Source of the DNA: Narcine bancroftii
Lineage: Eukaryota
Reading direction: 5' to 3'
DNA length: 64,000 nucleotides
NCBI RefSeq assembly: GCF_036971445.1
Contig: NC_091477.1
Span: forward strand, 97,030,001-97,094,000
Shown here: piece after piece, positions 3,756 to 61,823 of the stretch
Position numbering within the stretch: position 1 is the first letter of the stretch
How the letters are laid out: each line of letters begins with the position of its first letter
Notes under the pieces: model-generated
What the model was told of the DNA's origin: nothing
Database searches by the model: none
What the model saw: only the letters and a program-made list of their open reading frames with translations
Position numbers and translations under genes: made by a program

Positions 3756-5349
3756 CAGTACCCTCCATTATATTTTGGAACAAAGATGGAATTTTTCCTT
3801 TTTGTCCCTGTGCTCCACAGTTTTAAATTTGTAATGATTAAAGTGCATGTTCCAGATTTTATTCAAGGAAATTTGTGTACATTTTGGTTTGACCATGTAG
3901 AAATTACAGCACTTTTTAATACATAGTCCCCCCATTTCAGGGCACCATAATATTTAGGACAGAGCAATATTAAAGTAGCTATGTTTAAAACTTTGTTACA
4001 TATCCCTTGCTTGCAATGATTGCTTGAAGTCTGTGATTCATAGACATCACCAGGTGCTGTGCATCTTTGGTATGTCTCTTCTGCAGCCATCTTCAGCTCC
4101 TGCTTGTTTTGGGAGCTTGACTCTTTAAGTTTTCATTTCAGCATATGGAAGGCATGCTTAATTGGATTTAGATCGGTTTACTGACTAGGCCATTCAAGGT
4201 TTTTCCAAATTTTAAGCTTTGAAAAACTCTTGTTGCATTAGCAGTATATTTTGGATCATTGTCTTGCAGGAGGATGAAGTGCCATCCAATGAGTTTGGAG
4301 GGATTTGTTTGAACTTGATCAGATGTTTCTATACACCTCAGAATTCATTTTGCTACCGCCATCAGCAGTTACAGTATCATTGAAGATGACTCTGCCAGTA
4401 GCTGTGGCAGCCATACATGCCCAGGCCATAACACCTCCAACACCATGTTTCACAGATGAAGTGGTATGCTTTGGATCTTAGGCAGTTCCTTTTCGGCTCC
4501 ATACTTTGCTCTAGGCATCACTCTGATACAGGTTAATCTTGGACTCATCTGTCCACAAGATCTTTTTGCAAAATTCTGCAGGCTCTTTTAAATACTTCTT
4601 TGCAAACTGTAATCTGGCCATCCTGGTCTGTGGCTAAACTAGTGGTTTGTATCTTGCAGTGTAGCCTCTATACTACTGTTCATCAATTCTTCTGCAGACA
4701 GTAGTCATTGACACGTCCACATCTGTCTCCTGAAGCATGTTTCTGATCTTTTGGACAGGTGTTTGTGGATTTTTCTTCATTATGATGAGTTCTTCTGACA
4801 TCAGCAGTGGAGGTCTTCCTTGACCCTTTGCAATTACTCAGCTCACAGTACACTCTTTCTTGATGATGCTCCAAACACTTTATTTTGATAATCCTAAGGT
4901 TTGGGCAATGTGTTTATTCTTGTTTTTCAGCTTTATAATGGCATCTTTGACTTTCATTGGCACAACTCTGGACCTTGTGTTGAAAAATGGCAAATACAGA
5001 CTCCAAAGATTATCAAAAGCTTAGAAGCAACCCCAAATCTCGATACCTGCAGCAATGAACCAATTAAGCATACCTGAGGTCTCTGACTGCCTTTCGGTAG
5101 ACAAAAATCAAAGAATTTCATGTAAGGAAAAATTGCATCTTTGTCACAAATGCCTGAGAAGCCAAATGTCCCAAACATTATGGTGCCCTGAAATTTCTAA
5201 TTGATCAAGCCAAGATATATACAAATAACCTTGAATAAAATTTGGAATGGGCACTTTAATCACATGTGAATTGTTTGATTACAAATTGAAAACTGGAGCA
5301 CAAGGCCAAAGAAAAAAGATGTCTTTGTCCCAACATTATGGAGGGCTGG
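3756..5349 (-). mobile_element. Tc1-like DNA transposon, full length but decayed, IR/DR-type ends
   Basis: TA|CAGTACCCTCCATTATATTTTGGAACAAAGA inverted with TCTTTGTCCCAACATTATGGAGGG; inner repeats at ~3933-3963 and ~5168-5195; minus-strand WTDESKINL, TSSVKHG, QDNDPK transposase motifs with stops. Confidence 0.9.
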
Positions 5350-21660: not shown

Positions 21661-21950
21661 CATGGAGCTGGTGGGGAATTCCAGCCCATTGGAGCTGGTG
21701 CTGGTGGGGAATTCATGGAGCTGGTGGGGAATTCTAGCCCATTGGAGCTGGTGCTGGTAGGGAATTCATGGAGCTGGTGGGGAATTCTAGCCCATTGGAG
21801 CTGGTGCTGGTGGGGTATTCATGGAGCTGGAGGGGAATTCCAGCCCATTGGAGCTGGTGCTGGTGGGGAATTCATGGAGCTGGTGGGGAATTCTAGCCCA
21901 TTGGAGCTGGTGCTGGTGGGGAATTCATGGAGCTGGTGGGGAATTCTAGC
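21661..21950. repeat. ~54-bp minisatellite, ~5.5 copies
   Basis: Unit CATGGAGCTGGTGGGGAATTC(C/T)AGCCCATTGGAGCTGGTGCTGGTGGGGAATT, built from two related halves. Confidence 0.95.
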
Positions 21951-22329
21951 TCATTGTTTTAGGGTGAAAATTGTTCTCCTGAATTGTCATTCCCTGAAAC
22001 ATGACATCTCTCTTCATGGATATTGTCTGTCCAATTTTCACTGACCCTCTGCACATTGCCAGTGTTATTTATTACGTACCAGACAGCAGCAATAGAAGTG
22101 AGCCCATATAGTGTTGTATTTAAAATAATAATTTTAATTATTAATTAACAATGATATAGCACCTTACCTAACTTATTTACACTTGTCTAAACTTATCTAA
22201 CTTAACTCACATCTATGCATGAATGAACATTGTGTGCGTGTGTGTGTGTGGAACACCCCAAGCCACTACAGCTCAAGGCCAAATTCTCAAAAGGCAGTTC
22301 AACATTCAGTTTCGGAAGTTCAGTGATGA

Positions 22330-22752
22330 TATGTAGGCTTTAGATGGATGCGACACGCAGGCTTTAGATGGATGTGATATGTAGGCCTTAGATGGATTCA
22401 ACACATAGGCTTTAGATGGATGCGACACTCAGGCTTTAGATGAATGTGATATGCAGGCCTTAGATGGATGCGACACACAGGCCTTAGATGGATACGACAC
22501 GCAGGCCTTAGATGGATGCGACACGCAGGCCTTAGATGGATGCGACACGCAGGCTTTAGATGGATGCGACACGCAGGCCTTAGATGGATGCGACACGCAG
22601 GCCTTAGATGGATGCGACACACAGGCCTTAGATGGATTCAACATGTAGGCTTTAGATGATGCAACACACAGGCTTTAGATGGATGTGATATGTAGGCCTT
22701 AGATGGATTCAACATGTAGGTATTAGATGAATGTGACACGCAGGCTCTAGAT
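22330..22752. repeat. 24-bp minisatellite, ~17 copies
   Basis: Unit GCAGGC(C/T)TTAGATGGATGCGACAC. Confidence 0.95.
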
Positions 22753-23105
22753 GAAATTAGCAGTTCATGAAGTGGGTGAGTGAGACCAGGGGTGACAGAA
22801 TGTTGTTTAACTCACGAAAACCTTGTCAAGAAGCTTGTGACCCTCACACTGGTCACCATCCAAACGTAGTATTTCTTCTGCTTTCAGAAGCCTTTTCATG
22901 GGTTAGCTGAACAATGTGACCTCACTTTTCTGGTCACAGAGTGGTATTCTCATTCCCCTATAATGTGGAGAAATCAGACAGTTTGTCAATAACCATACAT
23001 GAGCCCACAGACAGAACAGTATCCTTTCAAAGGTTGCTTCTCCAAGTACTGACTCCTTAAAATGCCCACACTTATTCCCCTTCAAACATGGAGACATATT
23101 GTCTG

Positions 23106-25873: not shown

Positions 25874-27040
25874 CCACATGACTGCTTCAGCGCAGAATCC
25901 CTTCAAAAGATGATTCTTCAAGTGCTGCTTCCTTAAAATGGCCCCTGAGCAAAGTACTCTGTCTTGAATCTGTTGGTCTCATGATCATTGCTCCTGGGTT
26001 TCCTCTCTCCAAGATGTATCCAATGAGGAACATGCTGTCTTCAAACCTGCTTTCGATTCACAGTCACTCCAAAATGGTGATGTTTGCTACAATATTATTC
26101 TTTCTGACTTGGAACAGTTCCTAGCCAAGTCTTTAAATTAATATAATGGTATGCGTTTTGGTATAAAGATCCACTGTAAATGATCTGTATTTAAATGACA
26201 ACAAATCTCATTTTTTTAATGAGCTGTGAAATTCACCGGATTTCACATATATGCCAATGCCACTAAGATACACTTCACCATCCCCTCTTTTACCTCTTTG
26301 ATAAAAATAAACAATGCTATAGGGATAGACATTTCTTCCAACTTAATATTGAAAAAATAACAGCTGAAAATTCTGTTTCCTGACTCAATACTTTCTCCGA
26401 GGCTGCTGTTTAAAGTTGATAAGTAGTTGATGTCACATCTAATCCCAAGACCACCTTCATTTTGACTTCACCATAACCGCCTACTTCTACCTCCATAAGA
26501 TTACCAGCTCCTCCTGTTTTTATTCAAAATGGTCAATCGTCCTCCTTCTCGTTTTGACTATTTCAATGGTCTCTGTCTCATCCTCCTCTTTGAGCTCACT
26601 CAAAACTTTGCTGCTTGTATCCTAATTCATAATGTCCCATATCCTGTACTAAAAAACCTCTGATTTTTAAAAATTTATTTTGGTGCTAAAATACTCAGTG
26701 ACAGGATATGGGACGTTATGAATTAGGATACAAGCAGCAGAGCATTTTAGCACCAAAAGAAATTTAAAAAAATCGGAGGTCAAGATGATGTTATAAATGT
26801 GGAAACAAGAATCACTTATACTTTAATTCCCCTGAAGTCTTTCCTTCTCCAACTGTATCTCTGACTCACTCCTCTCTATACTCCTTCAATTTTGGCCTTT
26901 TGTACATCCTCAACATCAATCACTCCACATTAGTGATCATGCCTTCAGCTTCCCTGGGCCAGGACTCTGGAGTTCCTCCCTAAAACTCTCCCCCTTTATT
27001 TTTCTCTTATTAGACCAACCATTAAACTAAACACTTTGAT

Positions 27041-30317: not shown

Positions 30318-30428
30318 ATGGCTGCAGACGTCGGAGAACTGCTGGTCCCGTATATGCCAACTATCCGAGTCCCCAGATCAGGGGACAGGGTCTACAAGAG
30401 CGAATGCGCCTTCTCCTTCGACTCCCCA
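30318..30428 (+). CDS. USP13: USP13 coding exon 1 (ubiquitin-specific peptidase 13 / isopeptidase T3)
   Basis: [37 protein letters not shown]; GTAAGT donor; USP13 follows NDUFB5 in conserved synteny. Confidence 0.95.
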
Positions 30429-30604: not shown

Positions 30605-30778
30605 AGACCCCAGCAGCCGGTGGCGGAGACCCCCCCCCCCCCCCAGCAGCCGGTGGCGGAGACCCCCCCCCCCAGCAGCCGGTGGCGGAGACCCCCCCCC
30701 ACAGCAGCCGGTGGCGGAGACCCCCCCCCCCCAGCAGCCGGTGGCGGAGACCCCCCCCCAGCAGCCGGTGGCGGAGCG
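30605..30778. repeat. GC-rich ~30-bp minisatellite with poly-C runs, 5 copies
   Basis: Unit CAGCAGCCGGTGGCGGAGA followed by C8-C14. Confidence 0.95.
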
Positions 30779-32762: not shown

Positions 32763-33322
32763 GGCTACATCACAGTCTGGTATGGGGACACCAATACCCC
32801 TGAACTTAAAACCCTCCAAAAGGTAGTGGACACAGCCCAGGACATCACAAGCAAAACCCTCCCCACTATCGAGAACATCTACAGGAAACGCAGCTGTCAG
32901 AGAGCAGCAGCAATCACCAAGGATTCACACCACCCAGCACACACTCTGTTCTCACTGCTGCCATCAGAAGCACACACTCTGTTCTCACTGCTGCCATCAG
33001 AAAAGAGGTCTAGTGGCCACAAGACTCACACCACCAGCATCAGGAACAGCTGCTACCCTTCCACCATCAGACTCCTCAATCAGAGACTCATTTAAGGACT
33101 CTTACTTGTGTACTTTAACCATATTGTTTCTTTTTTAATTTTCTCTATGTTGCAGTCAATTTATTTGTATTCATTGTCTTTTTGCAGTTCTTTGTTTACG
33201 TTTACACTGTGTACATTTTTTTGCACTACCAATTAGTCATAATTATTGCACGCCCTCAGGTAAAAGAATCTCAGGGTTGTATGTGATGTCACATACATAC
33301 TCTGACAATAAATAAAACTGAA
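32763..33322 (+). mobile_element. Rex1-like LINE 3' fragment
   Basis: LQKVVDTAQDITSKTLPTIENIY; internal ~33-bp duplication; GACAATAAA tail. Confidence 0.8.
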
Positions 33323-36092
33323 ATGGGTAAAAGGCCCTTTCGGCCCATGAACCTGTGCCACCCAATTACACCTAATTTACCTACAATTTTGAACAGTGGG
33401 AGGAAAGTGGAGGACCTGGAGGAAACCCACACAGACATGGAGAGAACAGACAGCGTGGGATTCAAACCCCGGTCTCAATCGCTGGCACTGTTACAGCATT
33501 GTGTTAACCGTGCCCCTCTTCTCACATCTAAGCACATGTCCTCCCTGATATAAAACTCAGTCTCCATCATCAAATCTTCAAGGAGTTCCATTGACTAGGA
33601 GCTTGCCTTCTCTAGGTACACAAATGCTGTGAGTATAATTGGGACAAGGGCTGAGGATCTAGTGATGACTGACTTACCTTCTGATTTCCAATCCTTTTCC
33701 ATCAGCTGCACCATGCGCCAGGATGGAATAAAGTTCACTTGCCTGGATGACCACAACTCCAGCAGCTCAATGTTATCCAGGAGAAAGCAATTTACCTGAC
33801 TGTCACCCTTAACACCACCTTCATTATTCAATCTATTATGTCGTCATTCTGCAGCACGATTAATGTAGCAGTTGGCACACACTATTACAGCGCCAGCGAC
33901 CTGGGTTTAAATCTGGCAATGTCTGTAAGGAATTTGTATGTTCTCCCCATGTCTGCATGCGTTTTCTCCAGGTGCTCCAGTTTCATCCCACCCTTCAAAA
34001 TGTACGGAGATTGTAGGCTAATTGGGTAAAATTGGGCAACATGGACTTGTGAGCCAGAAGGGCCTGTTAGCATGCTGTATGGCTAAATTAAAAAAATAAA
34101 CAAGTAATTAATTAAATTTAAAAAACATAAATTAAAAACTAAATTAAATCAATACTGATGGGAGTGCTGCAATAGCTCATAGCATATCATTGATACCTCA
34201 TTTTGGACTGTTAGATTTATCTCATATAGCCATGATGGTATTACAATGGGAGGAAGGGACAAAATGTTTGGTGGTAGCATCAAGGTGAAGCTGGTGAAAG
34301 ATCACAGATGTCACGGAGGCAGAATAGTTTATGCTGGTGGCGATCAGCTTCAGAGACCCTAGTTCAAACCTGACCCCAGGTGAGGAGTGTGGGAAACTTG
34401 CACTTTCTCCCAGTGCCCCTGTGGGTCATCCCCAGGTGTTCCAGTTTCCTTCCACATCTCAAAGACATGCTGGTTGGTTAATGACACATGTAAATTTCCC
34501 CCAATGTGTACAAGTGCCAGATACTAAAGATATGAGCATGTGGGGGAGAATAGATTGCAGGGACGCAGGAGAAGCAAGGGGCCTCACAGAAGCCCTCAGA
34601 ACGTCATCACTATCCTGATATTTCTGTTTTGTAGGAAATAAAACAATGAATCATCAGCTGAACACAGAGGCCAGTGAGGTAGAAAGTAGGGAGAAGGGGA
34701 GCTTTATTCTTGCTCTAGATGAGTGGTGTGGGCTTGAGAACAGAAATGGATGAGGTTGAGAATCTTTATCAATGAAGTAAAACCACAATTGTGGGAAGAG
34801 TAAGATATATTGCTTTTTGGTGTTTCTCCTGTGTTACTTGCACTACAGTTGTATTAACTTTTCTAACAGTAAATTACTACATCCACTTTTATGAAGTTTC
34901 CACACTTGCATGATCTAAAGAACCCTCCTGCCAGTCGAGTTACTGTGAAACCACAGATTTTTCAGGGCCTCGGTGGATATTTCCAGATATTTAAAAATAA
35001 ATTACATTTGGATTTCCAATATCTGTAGTAGATTACCTCTTTTGATTACTGGTATATTTGGTCATGCTCCCACTAGAAATTTATTAAAGAAATTTAAGCT
35101 TGTACCTGTACTCCCATATCAGTCTGCTCTGGTGAAGTTCAGATGAAGAATTGTTGAAGCAAAAGAGATATTTGGACCAAGCCTTGCAGGTTTGGCTCAA
35201 CTCTATGCTAAGATCATGTATTTTTCAATCTGTATAAATGCATTACACTTATAAAGTGGATGTGTAATCTGCATAAAAGTGTATATAATAATTCATTATT
35301 GGAAAAGTTAATAAAATTGCTGTCTGCCAAATATGGTTCAGAAAGAAGCTCTTTAGGAATAATGCTTTGAGCTAAAATCTATGTTTAAAAAAAAAAAAAA
35401 CAGCTTTCATGGTCAAACCAAAAGAAACAATTGATGTATGGTGTATTATATTCCAGGAAATCATTTATCTGTAGCTGATTTGTGGGTGAGTCATCAGAAC
35501 ATTAATTTCATTTGATTGAAGGGGAATTATTAGTCTGTAGACATTGTACTTCCATTTTTTAATTACAAGAGTAGATCTTTTGGAACAAACTATTTGGTGT
35601 TTTATTTTGCTGTATTAAAAGAATAACGTTATAAAATGTGCAATAGGCCTATTATCTGTAAAATATAATTGGATTAGACAAACCATTTTCATCATGTGTT
35701 TGATTTAATTTTGGAGTGAGAATTAACTAAGGGTCCATGGATATTTTCATTGAATGAAAACATAGTTAAGAGATTCAATTTATGTTTTCTGTCTAAAATT
35801 TACAAAACAAAATTTGGCTGCAATTTTTGTGTTTTAACAGTGCCATTAAAAGAAATGCTGCTGGATCAGTTTACTAATTCAGTACTAACGCTATGCATTA
35901 AAACTGCTACCAAATAATGGATGGTGCACTTTTGTTTTATTATTACACTGCCTGCTGTACTTAAGTGTATGTTGACTTGGCTGGATGGCACACAAAGCAA
36001 AGCTATTAACTGTATCATCGTACACATGCCTATAAATAATTCAATTCATGCACTATGACTGTAAGATGAACCTCACAGTTATAGAATAGCGT

Positions 36093-37329
36093 TGTCTAGT
36101 GCAAGAGCATGCTAGAGATACCAGCATGTCAGGCAGTGCCTTTGGAGAAAAACATTGAGCTACTTTCATTGGAATCGTGATCAATTAAATCTGAGTTTCA
36201 GTGTAGGGAACAAAAGAAATGGTGGTGTGAGTGGAACAAATGGGCAAGTTTGTGAGAGTGGAGGTGGATACAATTACAACATTGAGAAAAAAATGTGGAC
36301 ATGTACATTGTTAGAAATACTTAGAGGGATATGGGTCAAACAGAGGAAAAATGGATTAGCATGGAAGATTGGGCAAATGGCCTGTTTTTGAGCTGTAATA
36401 TTCTGTGAATCTATGTGGTTGTGGTGCTGGCTGAGAGAGAGATCTGTATGAGATATAATAGGAGCTGAATGAATGCAGAGGAGAGGGAGAACAGTAAGCT
36501 ACAAAATCTCAATCAATGTGCTGTTAAACACAGCCTGCTTTCTAAATTGCACAAAGCACGTTGCTCACTTTCTGAGTGGTACACAACACCCAAACATACT
36601 GGCTTTCAGCTCTTGTGCTGACCTGATTTCTCTGATTTTCATTTCAGATTTCCAGCATTAAAAAAAATGTCATCTGATTCAAATCAGTGAAGAAATGCGT
36701 CTTGTTTACTTTGGTTTTAGTGGAAGTTGTGCATGAGAGTAGTTCGGTTGAATTATTTGATTTTAAATATTGTATATGGTATTCCAATTATTTGTCAAAC
36801 TCCTCTGAATATCTGTACTTCCCCGATTTATATTCTGTTTAAACTACAGGAGTCTGAGGGCGGCCTTTATGTGTGCATGAATACTTTCCTTGGTTTTGGA
36901 AGGGAACACGTGGAGAGGCATTATCGCAAAACGGGACAATGTGTCTACATGCATCTAAAACGAACCATAAAAGAGGTAAGAATGATGCCTGTGATGGTAT
37001 AAGAAGTTTAAAAGTAACCTCACTTCATTCACCTATATTTCAAATGATTGTAAAATGTTAACATTGGAAAAATATGATCCTAACTTGTATTTTGCAAATT
37101 ATTGCAATGATGAGTATGATTTATGTTTCTGTTGCACATTAGATTCATACTCTCTCAAACTTGCCCGTTTGTTCCACTCACACCACCACCAACATATCTT
37201 TTGTTCCCTACACTGAAACTCTGAGATTTAATTTATCACAATTCCAATGCAAGTAAAAGTAGCTCAATGTCTTTCTCCAAAGGCACTGCCTGACATGTTG
37301 GTATCTCTGGCACACTCTTGCACTAGACA
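36093..37329. repeat. Long inverted repeat (arms 36093-36259 and 37149-37329) around USP13 exon 2
   Basis: The reverse complement of the right arm matches the left arm over its length, with small indels. Confidence 0.92.
36850..36975 (+). CDS. USP13: USP13 exon 2
   Basis: [42 protein letters not shown]; 126 nt, phase 0-0. Confidence 0.97.
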
Positions 37330-37540
37330 TCTTACATTCATAATACTTGAATCTCTGTTGATCCAAAGTCGAATAAGCTAAGGTGTAACCTTTAAGTTAG
37401 CTTGATTTGTTTTGAAATTTTTTGAATTTAAGTGAACTTAAGTATGGAAAATTATGCATTGATATTTGCTTTAAATAGTAGGTAATCTCCATGGGCATAA
37501 TACCTTATTTTCTCTTTGAATATATTTTGATTCATTCAGT

Positions 37541-37800
37541 AGATTTCAGATTTATTGTTAGAGCACATACATGACATCACATACAATCAACCCTGAAAAT
37601 CTTTATGCTGCAGGCCAGGCAGAATGACTACATATCGGTAGGGCCAAAAAAAAACTGTACACAGTGTACAAATGTAAACAATGGTCTGTGCAATACAGAG
37701 AGGAGAAAAAAATACACAAATAAGATGCAAAAGTAAGTGTTTGTTGTTGGGAAGTCTGATGATGGAGGGGAAGCAGCTGTTCCTGATCCTGGTGGCAGAC
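37541..37800 (-). mobile_element. Rex1-like 3' tail
   Basis: Minus strand ATRIRNSCFPSIIRL, then AATAAATCTGAA. Confidence 0.7.
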
Positions 37801-37832
37801 ATTTAAAAAAAAATTAACAATGGCATTTATCA

Positions 37833-39430
37833 ATTTCTTTCTTTTTCAATATTTTTATTAACATCAAAAATACAGAGTACATAAGGATATATGATAAAAG
37901 TCAGAAAGATACATTGCACTTAAATCATATAATTTCATCCAATGTACCCCACATTTTTAATCAAACATTGCTTAGTATTAATATTTGATTATTATAAAAA
38001 AGAAAATCTAAACCCACTAGCAAGAAAGATGATATTTAGCCAGAAAAAAAGACAGAATTCTTATCAGAGTTATAAATTACCTCATTAGTTGACACTTCTA
38101 CCTTCTTATCAAATCAAAAATTATGAAAGTAATTCAAAAAGGGTCCCCACATTGTTTGAAAATTTGAATTCAAGTCGGAAATTGAGCATCTCATCTGCAG
38201 CATTGTCCCTCCATCTGAGCAACACTGCCTGCCAAGCCATGAGAAATAAAAGCTAATACATGCAGAACAGATACTAACCTTCCTTTTAAAATTGTTAGAA
38301 ATCTATTTACCTATTTGGATGTAACAATTACTAAAAATTATAAAAACCTATTCAAAGAAAATGTTCGTACAGGTACCTTAATCAAACACGTGAAAGGGGT
38401 ATTATCAAATTGGTTACCCCTTTCTTTATCATTGATTGGTCGAATTAACTCTATTAAAATGAGTATATTACCTAAATTTTTAACCTTTTTCAAGCTTTGC
38501 CTATATTGTATTCCTAAGTCTTTTTTTGATTCCCTTGATTCAGTCTTATCTTCTAATATATGGAAGAATAAACATCCTCACCTAAATAAAGTCCATTTAC
38601 AACAACTTAAAAAGAATGAAGATTTTAGGTTTTATTATTGGGCAGTCAACATACAAAATTTTTCATTTTGGTTATATTAACCATGAAGACTGTCCAATAT
38701 GGGTCTTTGGAATATAATTCTGTTATAAAATTTTTTTCTTATTTCTCTTCTAGGATCTTCACTTCCTATATCTTTAAATAAATTAACTAATAATCTGGTG
38801 GTTAAACATATTTTGAGGATCTGAATACAATTTAGAAAACATTTTGGTTTAATGAGATTTTCTCTCTCTCGTCCTATTTTTTTCTAATTATTTTTTTCAA
38901 CCTTCCATGACTGTAACTTCTACAGCTGTGGTTCTCAACCTTTTTCTTTCCACCCACATACCACTTTAAGTATTCCCTATGCCTTAGGTGCTCTATGATT
39001 AGTACGTGATTGCTTAACGTGGTATGTGGGTGGAAAGAAAAAGGTTGAAAACCACTGTTTTGATCATACCTAATTGACTCATTATGTGCACGGTTTCATA
39101 ACTCCAAAGGAAATGGGCCAATGACAATTTTTCTCAAGCAAAATATTTCAGTAACGGTTGGGTCTAGAGCAGTGATTCTCAACCTTCCCTTCCCATTCAC
39201 ATACCACCTTAAGCAATTCCTTACTAATCACAGAGCACCGATGGCATAGGGATAACTTAAAGTGGTATGCGAGTGGAAAGAAAAAGGTTGAGGACCACTG
39301 TTTTAAAGAATGGTATAGATTTGGCATTAAATGTTATAAAGATTTATTTGTTGAGGCGAGTCTCACTTCTTTTGAACAACTTTCAGTTAAATACTGTATA
39401 CCAAATACTAATTTTTTTTGTTATCAACAG
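37833..39430. mobile_element. Rearranged L1/Tx1-clade LINE: 3' end on minus (37833-38195), ORF2 piece on plus (38280-39430)
   Basis: LSLIGRINSIKMSILPKF and FRFYYWA on plus; FQTMWGPFLNYF plus an A-rich tail on minus. Confidence 0.7.
38927..39300. mobile_element. hAT/Charlie-like MITE made of palindromic units; partial copy at ~44530-44622
   Basis: TGTGGTTCTCAACCTTTTTCTTTCCAC..ATACCAC ... GTGGTATG..GTGGAAAGAAAAAGGTTGA..ACCACTG occurs twice. Confidence 0.75.
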
Positions 39431-45700: not shown

Positions 45701-45761
45701 AAGGCCACAGGAGCTTCTGGTGGAGTACTTCCAAAGAGGAGATCCCCTCGGATATTTCTTG
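45701..45761 (+). CDS. USP13: USP13 exon 3
   Basis: KATGASGGVLPKRRSPRIFL(D); TTACAG acceptor, GTAAGC donor; 61 nt. Confidence 0.93.
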
Positions 45762-55303: not shown

Positions 55304-55425
55304 ACCTGGAGCAGAACAAAGACTTCAACAACGAAGATTACGAATATGAAGATGAAGCTAAACTTGTTATATTTCCTGACCACTTTGAAATTCCTTTGCC
55401 AAACATAGAGGAGTTGCCAGCGCTG
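55304..55425 (+). CDS. USP13: USP13 exon 4
   Basis: (D)[40 protein letters not shown]; GTCAGT donor. Confidence 0.96.
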
Positions 55426-56799
55426 GTCAGTGAGTGTGTTCAGTAGCTGCTCTAAATCTTCCCCTTTCAAGGATGTTTTTAATGTGAGAGAGGTGGGCAA
55501 GTGGAGTTGGTTGGAGGTTACTGCTGAAGAAAGATGCACAATTCCCTTCAGCCTAATCATACGACTCTTGAGGAAGATGAACACTGGTTTACCAAAGAAT
55601 GCAATGTATAACTTGGGAAACCTTTTTAACCTAGACTTCAAAGAAAACAAAATTTATTGTTGATTTGAATATGATTTAATAAAGTATGTGTAGAGTTTCG
55701 GACTGAAATACTGTCAAAGATTTTAAATTAATGTCAATGTAACCAATTCATAACAAATTTTTAATATCAGAAATTTGTAAAGCAGGAAAAAAAATCATTG
55801 AAAATAAGATGTCTCAAACTTGATGCTAAAAGGACAGGATATTATAGAAAGGCACTTAGAAACTTTAGAAATGTTCAAGATCATCAGGCAAACTCAACCT
55901 GGTAATGTGAAAAGAAAACATGGTTGACTAATGGTTGAAGTTCTTTGAAGAAGTAAGTAAGCTTAGGGAAAGGGGAATTGGAGGATGTAAGATAGTTAGA
56001 GTCTCTGAAGCCATTTGATAAGGTGCACATCAAAGGTTATTGTGGAAAAATAAAAGCTCGCTGTGTGAAAATCCATTAACGTGAATGGAAGACTGATTAT
56101 ATAAGTAAGTAGGCATAAATCGCTTATTTGTGGTTGATATGATGTAATGAGTGGTGGGCCACAGGGATAAGTCCAGGATACATATTTAACAATCAATTTC
56201 TAAATGTGCAAATGACATAAAAACAAGTAGAAAAGTAAATCATAGGATATAAGGAAACTACAGAGTGAAAATATTTTGATCTGGGAGAGTGGAGATGCAA
56301 CACTGCTCCAGAGGAATCAACCGCCCAGTCCTAACGCTTCTGGCTCCATATAGGTGTTGTGGCCACTTAGAGGAGTTGAAAGTGTTTTTGATCTAAAAAT
56401 TCTACAACTGTGGAGGTCTGTGCCCAAGATGATGGCGCCTGTGCTCGGAAGTGGGCACGAGGGTTTATAAACTACGGGGAGCAATGGACCAGCACAGAGC
56501 ATCAGAACTGGGGAGAACACCCCTCATTGAGAAGGAGGAGCAGAGGAGAAAACCCTGCAGGATGGTAACCATGGCAGCGAACCAGGGTGGGGCTCAGCAG
56601 CTGGGACCCACACAGGCTGCAACCAACTTGCAGTGGGGGCACCCACATGACTGCAGGCTCCTGGAGACTGGCTCATAGAAACCAGTTGTTCAAATCAAAG
56701 GCACGTAGAACGGGATGAGATCAGGATTCATTTTCTTCATCCAGAGGATGGAGGATCTGCAGTGTAATGATAGAGTGCTAGCGATAATCCTGACCACTA

Positions 56800-58260
56800 T
56801 CTCAGTGAGATGTTGCCATAAACCCAAAGACTGAAGTTGAAGCTACTACACTATGTCTTTGAAGTGGTGTTCGCACCAGGGAAACTTGCTGAGTTGATGC
56901 AATATCCAGGGAAACGACTCAGAATAAAGCACACATTGAGAGTTCCACAGAGATTTATGTGAATCTCCACGTGGACCTGATCACTGAATCGCTTCCCGTA
57001 TCTGACATGAAATCCAAACAGATCGCAGCAGAAAAAGACACAATTCTACAGCAGGTCATCAAGAATCTGAATGGCCTAGAGGTGAATGTCAGCCATTCTA
57101 CAACATCAGACCTGAGCTGAGTGTTGTCAATGGGCTTCTACTCAGACAGATCAGAATTGTCATTCCTCCATCACGACAACAAGAGATGCTGAAAGCGTAC
57201 ATGAGGGGCACCTTGAAATGGAAAAATGCAAGAGGAGGGCCAGAACTGCTGTTTATTGACCAGGGATAAATGCTAACATTGACAGGATGGTTTCTAGCTG
57301 TGAGACCTGTTTGAAGCATCATGCAAAGCAGGCAAAGGAACCCATGATCAAAACTAACTTACCAGTGGAATCATGGCAGAAAGTTGGGTCTGATCTGTTC
57401 CACATGGGTGGAAAGAATTACTTGCTGGTTATTGATTATCTATCGAATTATCTGGAGATTGCACTGTTTCCTAACATGTCTGCTGCTTGTGTGATCAAAT
57501 ATATGAAATCGATCTTTGCAAGACATGGAATTCCTCAAATTGTTTACAATGACAACGGACCATGTTACAGTTTTAGAGAACTTCAGAACTTTGCAGAAGA
57601 GTATGATTTTTGACATGTGACTTCAAGTTTTCTGTATTCTCAGTCAAACAATAAAGCAGACAAAGGAGTTCACATAATTAAACAGTTGCTCAAGAAAGCA
57701 CAAGACAGTGGCTCAGATCCCTATTGAGCTCTATTGAGTTACAGACCTTCACCACTGAACATGACATGTCACTCAGTGAGCTTCTGATGGGACATAGAAT
57801 ATGCACTATGTTTCCTTACTCTGCAGACCCAAACAAGAACAGAGATGTCCAAGATTTCAAACAGAAACAAAAGCATCTGCAATGGAGGCAAAAAGAAAAC
57901 TATGACAAGTCAGCAAGAAGCTTAGGGCCACTGGCACAACATGACACAGTGAGGTTCAGAGATTCCATCATTTAGGACAAAAAGGCCACTGTTCTGGAGG
58001 AAGTAAATCCAAGATCCTACACTGTCAGGACAGAGGACGATCGAATACTGAGGAGGAATCGAAAGAGCCTGCTGAAAACGCAAGAGAAACTCCAGGAACA
58101 GACCAATGCAGAGGATCCAGCCTGCACAGCACAGAGGAAACACCACCAGTGCTAGATCAGCAGAGCCGACACAATCACCAGTGATAAGAAGATCCACATG
58201 CATTATCAAAGCACCTGACAGACTGAATCTCAAAAAGAAAAAGGACTTCACACTTAAGAA
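56800..58260 (+). mobile_element. Gypsy pol remnant (integrase region)
   Basis: VSSCETC, WQKVGSDLF, YLLVIDYLSNY, IFARHGIPQIVYNDNGP, IIKAPDRLNL. Confidence 0.88.
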
Positions 58261-58264
58261 GTTT

Positions 58265-58785
58265 AGAACCATAGAACAATTACAGCACAGAAACTGGCCA
58301 CCTCATCCCCTCCAGTGTATGCCAAACCTTTTTTTTTTTTGTTGCCTAGTCCACCCAGTCTATAACCCTCCATACCTCACCCATCCATGTACCTCTCCAA
58401 ATTCTTCTTAAATGTTAAAATTGAGCCTGCATTTACCACTTCAGCTGGAAGCTCATTCCACACTCCCAGTACTCTGTGAAGAAGTTCCTCCTCATGTTCC
58501 CCCTAAGCCTTTCCCCTTTCACCCTTAACCCACGATGCTACTTTCAGGGAATTAGGTATCTGTATTCCCAGATCCCTCTGTTCTACCGCACTCCTCAGTG
58601 CCCTACCATTTACAGTGTATGCCCTTTGGTTTGTCTTTCCAAAATGCAACACCTCACACTGGTCTGCATTAAATTCCATCTGCCATTTTTCATCCCATTT
58701 TTTACAGCTGGTCCAAATCCCTCTGCAACCTTCTTTGCTGTCCACAATACCTCCAATCTTAGTGTAATCTCCAAACTTGGTCCCA
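58265..58785 (-). mobile_element. CR1 3' fragment with internal deletion
   Basis: KWQMEFNADQCEVLHFGKTN on minus, then CR1 tail. Confidence 0.8.
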
Positions 58786-59738: not shown

Positions 59739-59881
59739 GTGACAATAGCATGTGATGCAGTCCTAGCTGCGAAATCTCCATATGGCAAACAAGATTCTGA
59801 ATCCTGGGAAGAAGAGCTTAAGCATTCAAAACATGAAGACAACCTCCAACAACTGGACAATGGAGTCCGAATCCCGCCCAG
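59739..59881 (+). CDS. USP13: USP13 exon 5
   Basis: [47 protein letters not shown](S); AG|GTCAAT donor. Confidence 0.95.
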
Positions 59882-60542
59882 GTCAATGTCCTTCTCTGCT
59901 CCAAAAACAGTGATATGATTCAACCACTTGTCCTTTTATTCCTTCCGACCTGAATATTGTTCAGATGTTGAGAACAATATTCCGGACTTAATGAAATAAT
60001 AGGTTGATTAAAAAAAAATCATTTAATTCTTTAGAACAATTTCTTCTTTTAATTGTAGTTAGTGAAATACAAAAAAAAAGTGACTTCCTAACCACAAAAC
60101 GCCTGAATATATTATAGCCATTGTAATAACAAACCAAAGAATATAAATGTAATGCTTTGGGATTACTTGGCCAAGTAAAAATGCATTTTTATGAACACCA
60201 GTAAACTAAAAATGCTGTTACTTTTACATGGACGTAAGACAAAATAATGCTGATGTGTGAGATCTAAAATAAGTGCAAATCACACTAAAGATATTCATCA
60301 AGTTGAGCAGCATTTGTGGAGAGAAAGAAAAAAGGGGAGATGGTAGGGACATTTTAAGTTGATAATTTTTCAATGGGACAATGTTCCACTGTTGGTGATG
60401 TAAAGCTTTATATAGTATTGAATAGCAGTATTACTAGGCTCTGAAATCTTCTTTGATTTTTGACATTTATTTACTTGAACTGGGGAACTGCAGAATAGTA
60501 AAAATAATTACCACTTTATTAATGGGGAGAAATAATTCCTTC

Positions 60543-61447
60543 AAGATACTAAGATAGGTGGAATAGTGGATAATGAAGAAGGTTTTCAAGGATTTCAGAG
60601 GGATTTGGGCTGCTTAGAAAAGTGGGCTGAAAAATGGCAGATGAAATTTAATGCTGATAAGTGTGAGGTGCTTCATTTTGGTAAGAAGAATCAGAATAGG
60701 ACGTACGTGGTAAATGGGAGAGCATTGAGGAATACAGAAGAGCAGAAAGATTTAGGAGTGACGGTACATCGTTCCCTGAAGGTAGAAACTCACGTGAATA
60801 GGGTGGTGAAGAAGGCTTTTAGTATGCTGGCCTTTATCAATCATTGCATGGAATATAGGAGTTGGGAGGTGATGTTGAGATTGTATAAGACGTTGGTGCG
60901 GCCTAATTTGGAGTTCTGTGTGCAGTTCTGGTCGCCTAATTATAGGAAGGATATAAACAGAGTGGAGAGAGTGCAGAGAAGGTTGACCAGAATGTTACCT
61001 GGGTTTAAGCATCTAGAGTATAGGGAGAGATTGGACAGATTAGGTCTTTATTCTTTGGAGCGTAGAAGGTTGAGAGGGGATTTGATAGAAGTATTTAAGA
61101 TTATGAAAGGGATAGACAGAGTGGATGTGGATAGACTATTTCCGTTAAGAGGAGGAAAGATTAAAACAAGAGGACATGAGTTAAGAATTAAGGGGCAGAG
61201 GTTTAGAGGTAACATGAGGGGGAACTTCTTTACTCAGAGAGTGGTAGCCGTGTGGAATGATCTTCCAGGAGCAATAGTGGCGGCTGAGTCAATTGTATTA
61301 TTTAAGAAAAGGTTGGACAGGTATATGGATGAGAAGAAGATGGAGGGTTATGGGCATTGTGCAGGGAGGTGGGACTAGAAAGGGGTGTTTGGTTCGGTGC
61401 GGACTAGAAGGGCCTAATGGCCTGTTTCCGTGCTGTAATTGTTATGT
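60543..61447 (+). mobile_element. Young 5'-truncated CR1 LINE with an uninterrupted 270-aa ORF2 C-terminus
   Basis: WQMKFNADKCEVLHFG, LVRPNLEFCVQFWSP, LGLYSLERRRLRGDLIEVFK, FFTQRVV; CR1 3' UTR GGGCCTAATGGCCTGTTTCCGTGCTG. Confidence 0.93.
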
Positions 61448-61638: not shown

Positions 61639-61823
61639 TGGCTGGAAATGTGCCTGGTGTGACCTGAGGGAGAACCTTTGGTTAAACTTGACAGATGGTC
61701 ACATATTGTGTGGGAAATGGTTCTTTGATGGCAGTGGCGGCAATGGACATGCTCTGGAACATTACCGAAAGAAAAAATATCCTTTGGCAGTTAAATTGGG
61801 AACGATTAGTCCAGATGGTGCGG
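61639..61823 (+). CDS. USP13: USP13 exon 6 (ZnF-UBP domain); gene continues past the window
   Basis: [61 protein letters not shown]; CGKWFFD is USP13-type (USP5 has CGRRYFD). Confidence 0.97.

What the first reader, a model, noticed from the sequence alone, without database searches (positions are those of the whole stretch)
36093..37329. ~170-bp inverted repeat brackets in-frame USP13 exon 2 (candidate circRNA, exon-skipping or editing stem)
Seen: the left arm 36093-36259 (TGTCTAGTGCAAGAG...CATGTCAGGCAGTGCCTTTGGAGAAA...GAGTTTCAGTGTAGGGAACAAAAGA...GGTGTGAGTGGAACAAA.GGGCAAGTTTG) is the reverse complement of 37149-37329, with several exact blocks over 20 nt. The ~890-nt loop contains only exon 2 (126 nt, phase 0-0). 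Part of the arm resembles an old Penelope-like tail, but by eye the arms match each other better than other such tails in the window, suggesting a local inverted duplication or concerted maintenance. Established: flanking intronic complementary sequences promote back-splicing and exon skipping and are ADAR substrates. Inference: a lineage-specific stem that could remove 42 aa from the USP13 N-terminal region or yield an exon-2 circle.
Basis: partly seen in the sequence, partly recalled or inferred. Interest (0 to 1): 0.7.

Follow-up and report, generated by a model that had tools for sequence, protein, structure and literature searches.

The report
Inverted intron copy flanks USP13 exon
About 190 bases of one intron of the USP13 gene sit as a backwards copy in the next intron, absent from two related organisms, so a small exon now lies between two matching arms; this is likely a harmless DNA-repair scar, and whether it makes the exon get skipped is untested.

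Summary
The inverted repeat is real: 36093-36259 vs 37149-37329, 157 of 181 columns identical, around the 126-nt in-frame USP13 exon 2, and these are the only two matches found in the genome. DNA contigs of two related organisms hold the left arm but cross the right-arm site without it, so the right arm is a lineage-specific insertion, not a long-kept pair. It copies the left region in two pieces with short matches at the junctions, the signature of a templated (template-switch) insertion. The arms differ by 6%, statistically no less than this genome differs from the relatives (8-9%), and 7 of 10 changes break a base pair: no sign of upkeep. The nearby repeat tail is CR1-like, not Penelope, and mostly outside the arm. 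Comparable close inverted pairs occur about once per 100 kb here. The closest precedent is the mouse Tbxt insRCS2 allele (220 bp, same geometry), which does cause skipping, so an effect is plausible; RNA of this organism could not be examined. Skipping would delete 42 of 64 positions of the N-terminal zinc-finger-like domain. This scan noted similar cases in other genomes.

The parts
30318..30428 (+). USP13 exon 1, coding part (37 codons, phase-0 donor)
   Evidence: Pfam zf-UBP_var positions 1-22 of 64
36054..36066 (+). Second, short donor piece of the left arm (weaker complementarity runs on to about 36044)
   Evidence: 12 of 13 complementary to 37330-37342; 0 of 20000 random 60-nt intron pieces reach this
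36067..36092 (+). 26 nt of the donor region missing from the copy (skipped during copying or deleted later); 2-nt match at the jump
36093..36259 (+). Left arm, intron 1: the older (donor) copy, mostly single-copy DNA
   Evidence: covered by contigs of organisms B and D
36210..36415 (+). Decayed 3' end of a reverse-transcriptase LINE (CR1-group by recalled motifs); firm from about 36256, faint over the inner 30-50 nt of the arm; continues only beside the left arm
   Evidence: 40 scored genome matches at 68-85% apart from the self hits, most starting near 36257-36270; 5 of 8 copies align into the arm; profile hit 36256-36398 only
36850..36975 (+). USP13 exon 2, 126 nt, phase 0-0; encodes positions 23-64 of the 64-position zf-UBP_var (nUBP) domain
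   Evidence: X13 contig, 1 mismatch
37139..37149 (+). Left junction: 11-nt stretch repeated imperfectly (10 of 11) at 37332-37342
37148..37348 (.). Stretch absent from organisms B and D (10 other letters in its place): the insertion
   Evidence: one contig each jumps 37147 or 37137 to 37349 (X5 record 12, X8 record 29)
37149..37329 (-). Right arm, intron 2: inverted copy of 36093-36259
   Evidence: a 151-nt record of another study is identical over 37208-37358 (X7 record 18)
37330..37342 (-). Second copied piece (inverted 36054-36066), merging into the old intron 2 flank
45701..45761 (+). USP13 exon 3 (61 nt, phase 0 start); the acceptor that an exon-2 skip would use in frame
   Evidence: found by splice signals and frame; likeness to USP13 exon 3 is recalled

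Best explanation
A roughly 190-base piece of USP13 intron 1 is present as a backwards copy in intron 2, likely inserted in one repair event after this lineage split from two relatives, and it is likely a neutral scar whose predicted RNA stem has at most a small effect on exon 2. Inferred steps: a DNA end in intron 2, about 174 nt past exon 2, primed on the same-strand sequence about 890 nt upstream (own strand folded back, or the sister), copied 167-181 nt backwards, jumped 26 nt (or lost them later), copied about 13 nt more and rejoined intron 2 through an imperfect match, leaving an apparent 11-nt target duplication. Since then both copies have drifted without sign of selection. In pre-mRNA the arms are predicted to pair (160 pairs, uninterrupted runs of 41, 33 and 25), which likely attracts some intronic A-to-I editing and perhaps trace skipping, while most mature mRNA likely keeps exon 2.
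For: Shown: two copies only. Right arm absent, left arm present, in 2 of 2 other organisms whose DNA contigs span the site. The LINE remnant runs on beside the left copy only. Two-piece insert with junction matches, as described for germline templated insertions (PMC8421209). Arm divergence 6.0% (95% CI 2.9-10.7) vs 9.3% (140 of 1505) and 8.4% (127 of 1513) to the relatives, not significant; 3 of 7 transitions keep G-U, as chance gives. 7 inverted pairs of at least 150 bits within 2 kb in 664 kb, this one included; exon 5 of the same gene also lies between inverted LINE copies, predicted -251 and -179 kcal/mol against -271 here. Predicted opening of both exon-2 splice sites is unchanged by the stem, 0.48 vs 0.48-0.51; donor GAG|GTAAGA is near consensus. 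Skipping would remove 42 of 64 domain positions of an exon that differs by 1 of 126 nt in another organism.
Against: The mouse Tbxt insRCS2 allele, 220 bp captured backwards about 950 bp from its source, made the skipped form exceed the full-length one (PMC10901737), and removing one Alu reduced skipping in 7 of 8 reporters by about 1 to over 40 points (PMC13019944). This stem is the strongest and tightest around any of exons 2-5, the exon is in frame so a skipped mRNA would escape decay, and the acceptor's pyrimidine tract is only moderate (10 of 17; no MaxEntScan here), the class most sensitive in PMC13019027. The confidence interval on arm divergence is wide. Absence in relatives rests on one contig each; the 10 letters at the empty site were not printed, and the simplest model predicts 8. 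A loss in a common ancestor of B and D is not formally excluded.
Confidence: 0.7

Rival explanations
1. Natural counterpart of Tbxt insRCS2: the new stem loops out exon 2 in a sizeable share of transcripts, giving an in-frame USP13 that lacks most of its N-terminal nUBP domain and so likely has altered partner binding or activity.
For: Geometry and size match the mouse allele; duplex -271 kcal/mol, loop 889 nt; phase 0-0 exon; gain of inverted pairs goes with more skipping between primates; the human USP13 N-terminus is reported to bind partners such as MCL1 (PMC9014248).
Against: 14 unpaired nt, 7 broken pairs and a 26-nt gap have accumulated with no sign of repair; in humans stem stability barely separates skippable from constitutive exons (d = -0.12), and the less perfect Alu pair gave little skipping in mouse tailbud; the deletion would cut a folded domain in two.
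Confidence: 0.15
2. The arms drive back-splicing of exon 2 into an abundant 126-nt circular RNA.
For: Flanking complementary sequences promote circularisation, even at 30-40 nt (review passage, PMC6376182); bamboo-shark liver circles of 170-177 nt are listed (PMC7759564).
Against: The same passage says efficiency rises with exon length and single-exon circles come from exons about 3-fold longer than average; 126 nt is an ordinary exon length. No USP13 mention in the shark paper's main text.
Confidence: 0.05
3. An old pair kept alike by gene conversion or by selection for pairing.
For: Point estimate of arm divergence (6.0%) is below that to the relatives (8.4-9.3%); two other local pairs are more alike than any dispersed copy of their family.
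Against: Right arm absent in B and D; difference not significant; no excess of pair-keeping changes.
Confidence: 0.04
4. Same outcome, different origin: the copy was made from the nascent pre-mRNA by a LINE reverse transcriptase priming at a nick in intron 2.
For: An inverted copy of upstream sense sequence is what priming on the gene's own RNA would give (inference); 10 of 11 direct repeat at the ends; CR1-group elements cover 22-34% of shark and ray genomes (PMC13343379).
Against: No poly(A) or LINE tail at the insert end, the insert stops before the firm part of the LINE remnant, and the apparent target duplication is explained by donor sequence. The sequence cannot tell an RNA from a DNA template.
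Confidence: 0.1
5. Assembly artefact (fold-back chimera).
For: None beyond the inverted form.
Against: 10 substitutions and 3 indels between arms; a record from another study is identical across the outer junction.
Confidence: 0.01

Closest known systems
Mouse Tbxt insRCS2 allele (Xia et al. 2024, PMC10901737; passages and sections 9 and 21 read)
   Same: A roughly 200-bp piece of one intron captured backwards in the neighbouring intron, about 0.9 kb from its source, enclosing one in-frame exon; non-Alu sequence.
   Different: That allele arose at a CRISPR cut, is a perfect 220-bp match and has shown skipping and a phenotype. This one is natural, aged (87% of columns) and has no RNA evidence.
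Microhomology-mediated templated insertions, MMB-TI (PMC8421209; passages and section 10 part 1 read)
   Same: Insertion near and inverted to its template, short or imperfect matches at junctions, more than one copied piece, germline.
   Different: Their search covered templates within 100 bp; here the template is about 890 nt away and the insert about 190 nt. The repair pathway is inferred.
Inverted Alu pairs that flank skipped or circularised exons, e.g. human TBXT AluSx1-AluY (PMC13019027, PMC13019944; abstracts and results read in part and in full respectively)
   Same: Lineage-specific gain of a second arm creates a predicted long duplex around an exon.
   Different: Arms here are not members of a dispersed family, so no other partner competes; about 170 bp rather than 300; effect not shown.

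Membership tests
Templated (template-switch) insertion | Insert absent from the ancestral allele | tested here: met
   2 of 2 spanning relatives lack 37148-37348; polarity by parsimony plus LINE continuity
Templated (template-switch) insertion | Insert is an inverted copy of nearby sequence | tested here: met
Templated (template-switch) insertion | Short or imperfect matches at the junctions | tested here: inconclusive
   Exit junction imperfect match and 2-nt match at the internal jump; entry junction 1 nt for certain; empty-site letters not printed
Exon-skipping inverted pair (TBXT type) | Stable predicted duplex enclosing an in-frame exon | tested here: met
Exon-skipping inverted pair (TBXT type) | Skipped transcript seen, and dependent on the arms | not tested
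   No RNA of this organism was laid
circRNA-promoting reverse-complementary match | Back-splice junction seen | not tested
   No RNA of this organism was laid; no go-back joint at exon 2 among the 15 of 23 joints shown for four other runs, which says little
ADAR editing substrate | Clustered A>G changes in RNA against DNA of the same individual | not testable with these tools
   No raw RNA reads or matched DNA listed; helices of 41, 33, 25 pairs predicted
Conserved or concertedly evolving RNA stem | Both arms in relatives, with compensatory changes or excess identity | tested here: not met
Dispersed repeat pair (SINE, LINE, MITE) | Arm has many genomic copies | tested here: not met
   2 matches against 1443 and 1745 candidates for two control pairs
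Penelope-like element | GIY-YIG endonuclease after the reverse transcriptase | tested here: not met
   The tail family ends a 280-aa frame with a weak RVT_1 hit (E 0.022) and no GIY-YIG hit; all 8 tail loci match that frame by tblastn, E 2e-25 to 0.005
CR1-group LINE | Reverse-transcriptase phylogeny or match to a curated consensus | not testable with these tools
   No repeat library held; the label is recalled from the C-terminal motifs
Known structured RNA (Rfam) | Match at a family's gathering score | tested here: not met
   3 matches, all far below threshold

The most novel reading that the evidence does not exclude
A natural, fixed counterpart of the engineered Tbxt insRCS2 allele: one DNA-repair accident, with no transposon, built an exon-skipping stem and gave this lineage a USP13 isoform lacking its N-terminal domain. 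Relatives without the arm are a ready-made control, and local templated insertions would be an overlooked source of new splice forms.
Probability: 0.13. Interest if true: 0.62.

Novelty: new member of a known kind. Interest (0 to 1): 0.3.

Why it matters
As it stands it is a clean, datable example of a germline templated insertion with its empty site seen in relatives. If it changes splicing, it would show that repair scars, not only Alu-type repeats, create lineage-specific exon skipping in nature. I found no paper on this locus or on a natural case of this type in searches (listings read, open-licence library only), which is weak evidence of absence.

Tried and rejected
RNA evidence: no listed holder is on record as RNA. 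Rfam: nothing near threshold. ESM Atlas gave no answer for the LINE frame. First exon scan placed the exon-1 donor 4 nt too far; corrected; a mis-set exon 5 was redone. Retroposition with a true target-site duplication was considered: 10 of 11 repeat, reached by 4 of 5000 random draws, but only when the first base of the arm is counted (9 of 11 without it), and donor sequence explains it. The idea that the LINE inserted into a longer arm was dropped: the relatives hold the left arm with the LINE beside it and no right arm. Direct-repeat counts are swamped by satellite arrays and were not used; close palindromic (MITE-like) spans were counted apart. Supplements: PMC7759564 held 1 file of 294 characters, so its circle list was not seen; PMC13019944, 3 files, no USP13 or USP5. 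No relatives' genomes are held for this window.

Full report
Observation. The repeat is as described. 36093-36259 aligns to the reverse complement of 37149-37329 over 181 columns with 157 identities, 10 substitutions and three indels of 6, 2 and 6 nt; it is the best of 17 inverted self-matches in the window. Exact blocks of 26, 25 and 21 nt are present. Folded as RNA, the arms pair in both the minimum-energy and centroid structures; duplex energy is -271 kcal/mol, with 160 pairs in runs up to 41, 33 and 25.

Gene. Exons were placed at 30318-30428, 36850-36975, 45701-45761, 55304-55425, 59739-59881 and 61639-61823 by splice signals and frame. Exon 6 is closer to USP13 (2L80, 121.9 bits) than to USP5 (107-111 bits). 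Exons 1 and 2 together encode Pfam zf-UBP_var, exon 2 giving positions 23-64 of 64; this is the nUBP domain of the USP5 structure 3IHP (legend passage in 10.1101/2021.05.17.444542). Exon 2 is 126 nt and phase 0-0, so a skip is in frame but removes two thirds of that domain.

Copy number. Either arm finds only itself and its partner in the 3.3-Gb genome, and so does a 26-nt core with two mismatches allowed. The tool's counts are lower bounds, but two control pairs gave 1443 and 1745 candidates. The stretch next to the left arm is a decayed repeat. It aligns to the 3' end of an element at 60536-61430 whose 280-aa frame has a weak RVT_1 hit and no GIY-YIG hit, and all 8 tail loci match that frame. 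I call it CR1-group from recalled motifs; it is not Penelope-like. Five of eight copies align faintly 30-50 nt into the arm, but a 15-copy profile starts only at 36256, so the arm is largely single-copy DNA. The remnant continues beside the left arm only.

Relatives. One run search listed 14 runs, all kept as contigs. Four were laid on 35600-37900. In X5 (organism B) and X8 (organism D), contigs cover the left arm region, and a single contig in each runs through exon 2 to 37147 or 37137 and resumes at 37349, with 10 other letters in place of 37148-37348. So 2 of 2 organisms that span the site lack the right arm. X7 (another study) has a 151-nt record identical to 37208-37358, across the outer junction, which excludes an assembly chimera. 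X13 has a 3222-nt transcript-like contig that covers exactly exon 2 with one mismatch; its arm status is unknown.

Anatomy of the insert. After 37329 the copy continues with 13 nt matching inverted 36054-36066 at 12 of 13, after a 26-nt jump with a 2-nt match; none of 20000 random intron pieces matched as well. That piece also resembles the old intron 2 flank, which produces the 10-of-11 direct repeat at the ends. The simplest reading (inferred) is a template switch: entry at the inner end of the donor, backward copying, one jump, and return through an imperfect match. Germline insertions of this type, including multi-piece ones with imperfect junction matches, are described in PMC8421209 (passages and section 10 part 1), though from templates within 100 bp. 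An RNA template cannot be excluded.

Selection. The arms differ at 10 of 167 sites (6.0%, CI 2.9-10.7%). Summed over the listed contig pieces, this genome differs from B at 140 of 1505 (9.3%) and from D at 127 of 1513 (8.4%), exon included; Fisher p 0.20 and 0.37. This fits a copy made after the split and left to drift. Seven substitutions break a pair and three leave G-U, 3 of 7 transitions, as chance predicts.

Background. In 664 kb (67 pieces: the window, 200 kb beside it, 400 kb from elsewhere, several of them satellite arrays) there are 7 inverted pairs of at least 150 bits within 2 kb, this one included, enclosing 0.66% of bases. Two of the other six were checked genome-wide: both belong to dispersed families, yet each one's best match is its local partner (91% vs 87%, 98% vs 87%), so local copying is not rare here. 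Exon 5 of the same gene lies between inverted LINE copies (-251 and -179 kcal/mol, loops 1.8 and 2.6 kb); exons 3 and 4 have no such pair. The exon-2 stem is the tightest and most perfect of these.

Function. No RNA of this organism could be examined, so nothing is shown. For an effect: the mouse Tbxt insRCS2 allele, a 220-bp piece of intron 6 captured backwards in intron 5 at a CRISPR cut about 950 bp away, made the skipped form the major one (PMC10901737, passages and sections 9 and 21); deleting one Alu reduced skipping in 7 of 8 reporters (PMC13019944, results read in full). Against a large effect: stem stability barely separates skippable from constitutive human exons, and tracks skipping only where the acceptor is weak (PMC13019027, first third of results); the 228-of-297 Alu pair gave little skipping in mouse tailbud; the stem stops 590 nt before the acceptor and 174 nt after the donor and does not change their predicted opening; single-exon circles come from long exons (PMC6376182, passage). 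The human USP13 N-terminus is reported to bind partners (PMC9014248, section 4), so a skipped form might matter if it exists.

Verdict. A real, lineage-specific inverted templated insertion, most likely neutral (0.7), with a 0.15 chance of sizeable exon-2 skipping. It works like a TBXT-type stem in geometry only; membership needs RNA. Earlier notes of this scan describe the same arrangement in at least five other genomes (unchecked); none concern this place.

Noticed in passing
window 58275-58763 and 60548-61443: Two oppositely oriented LINE copies (72-73% over about 415 nt) enclose the frame-shifting USP13 exon 5 (59739-59881).
   Followed up: partly
window 33031-33324 and 37543-37795: Two weaker inverted repeat-family pairs (71-78%) also enclose exon 2, loops over 4 kb.
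   Followed up: partly
L033:579-678 and 1042-1141: Inverted pair 98% alike over 100 nt, 364 nt apart, while the best dispersed copy is 87%: a recent local inverted copy or conversion.
   Followed up: partly
L072:2988-3144 and 4441-4598: Inverted pair 91% alike, 1.3 kb apart; best dispersed copy 87%.
   Followed up: partly
L030:934-1166 and 2465-2698: Local direct duplication, 96% over 234 nt, 1.3 kb apart.
   Followed up: no
window 38917-39305 and 26606-26780: Near-palindromic, MITE-like elements with 117-nt and 41-42-nt arms.
   Followed up: no
window about 36107-36180: Extra depth in X5, X8 and X13 beyond the orthologous contig suggests short matches elsewhere in those organisms; pieces not listed.
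   Followed up: no
window 55426-55431 and 59882-59887: Donors of exons 4 and 5 read GTCAGT and GTCAAT, off consensus at +3.
   Followed up: no
window 21661-21956, 22335-22753, 30608-30776: GC-rich tandem arrays of period 53, 24 and 29; the last lies 180 nt after exon 1.
   Followed up: no
window 57458-58148: Frames resembling an LTR-type integrase region in intron 4 (likeness recalled, not tested).
   Followed up: no
L052, L053, L058, L059, L074, L075: Large satellite arrays related to one another on contigs C15, C17 and C5.
   Followed up: no
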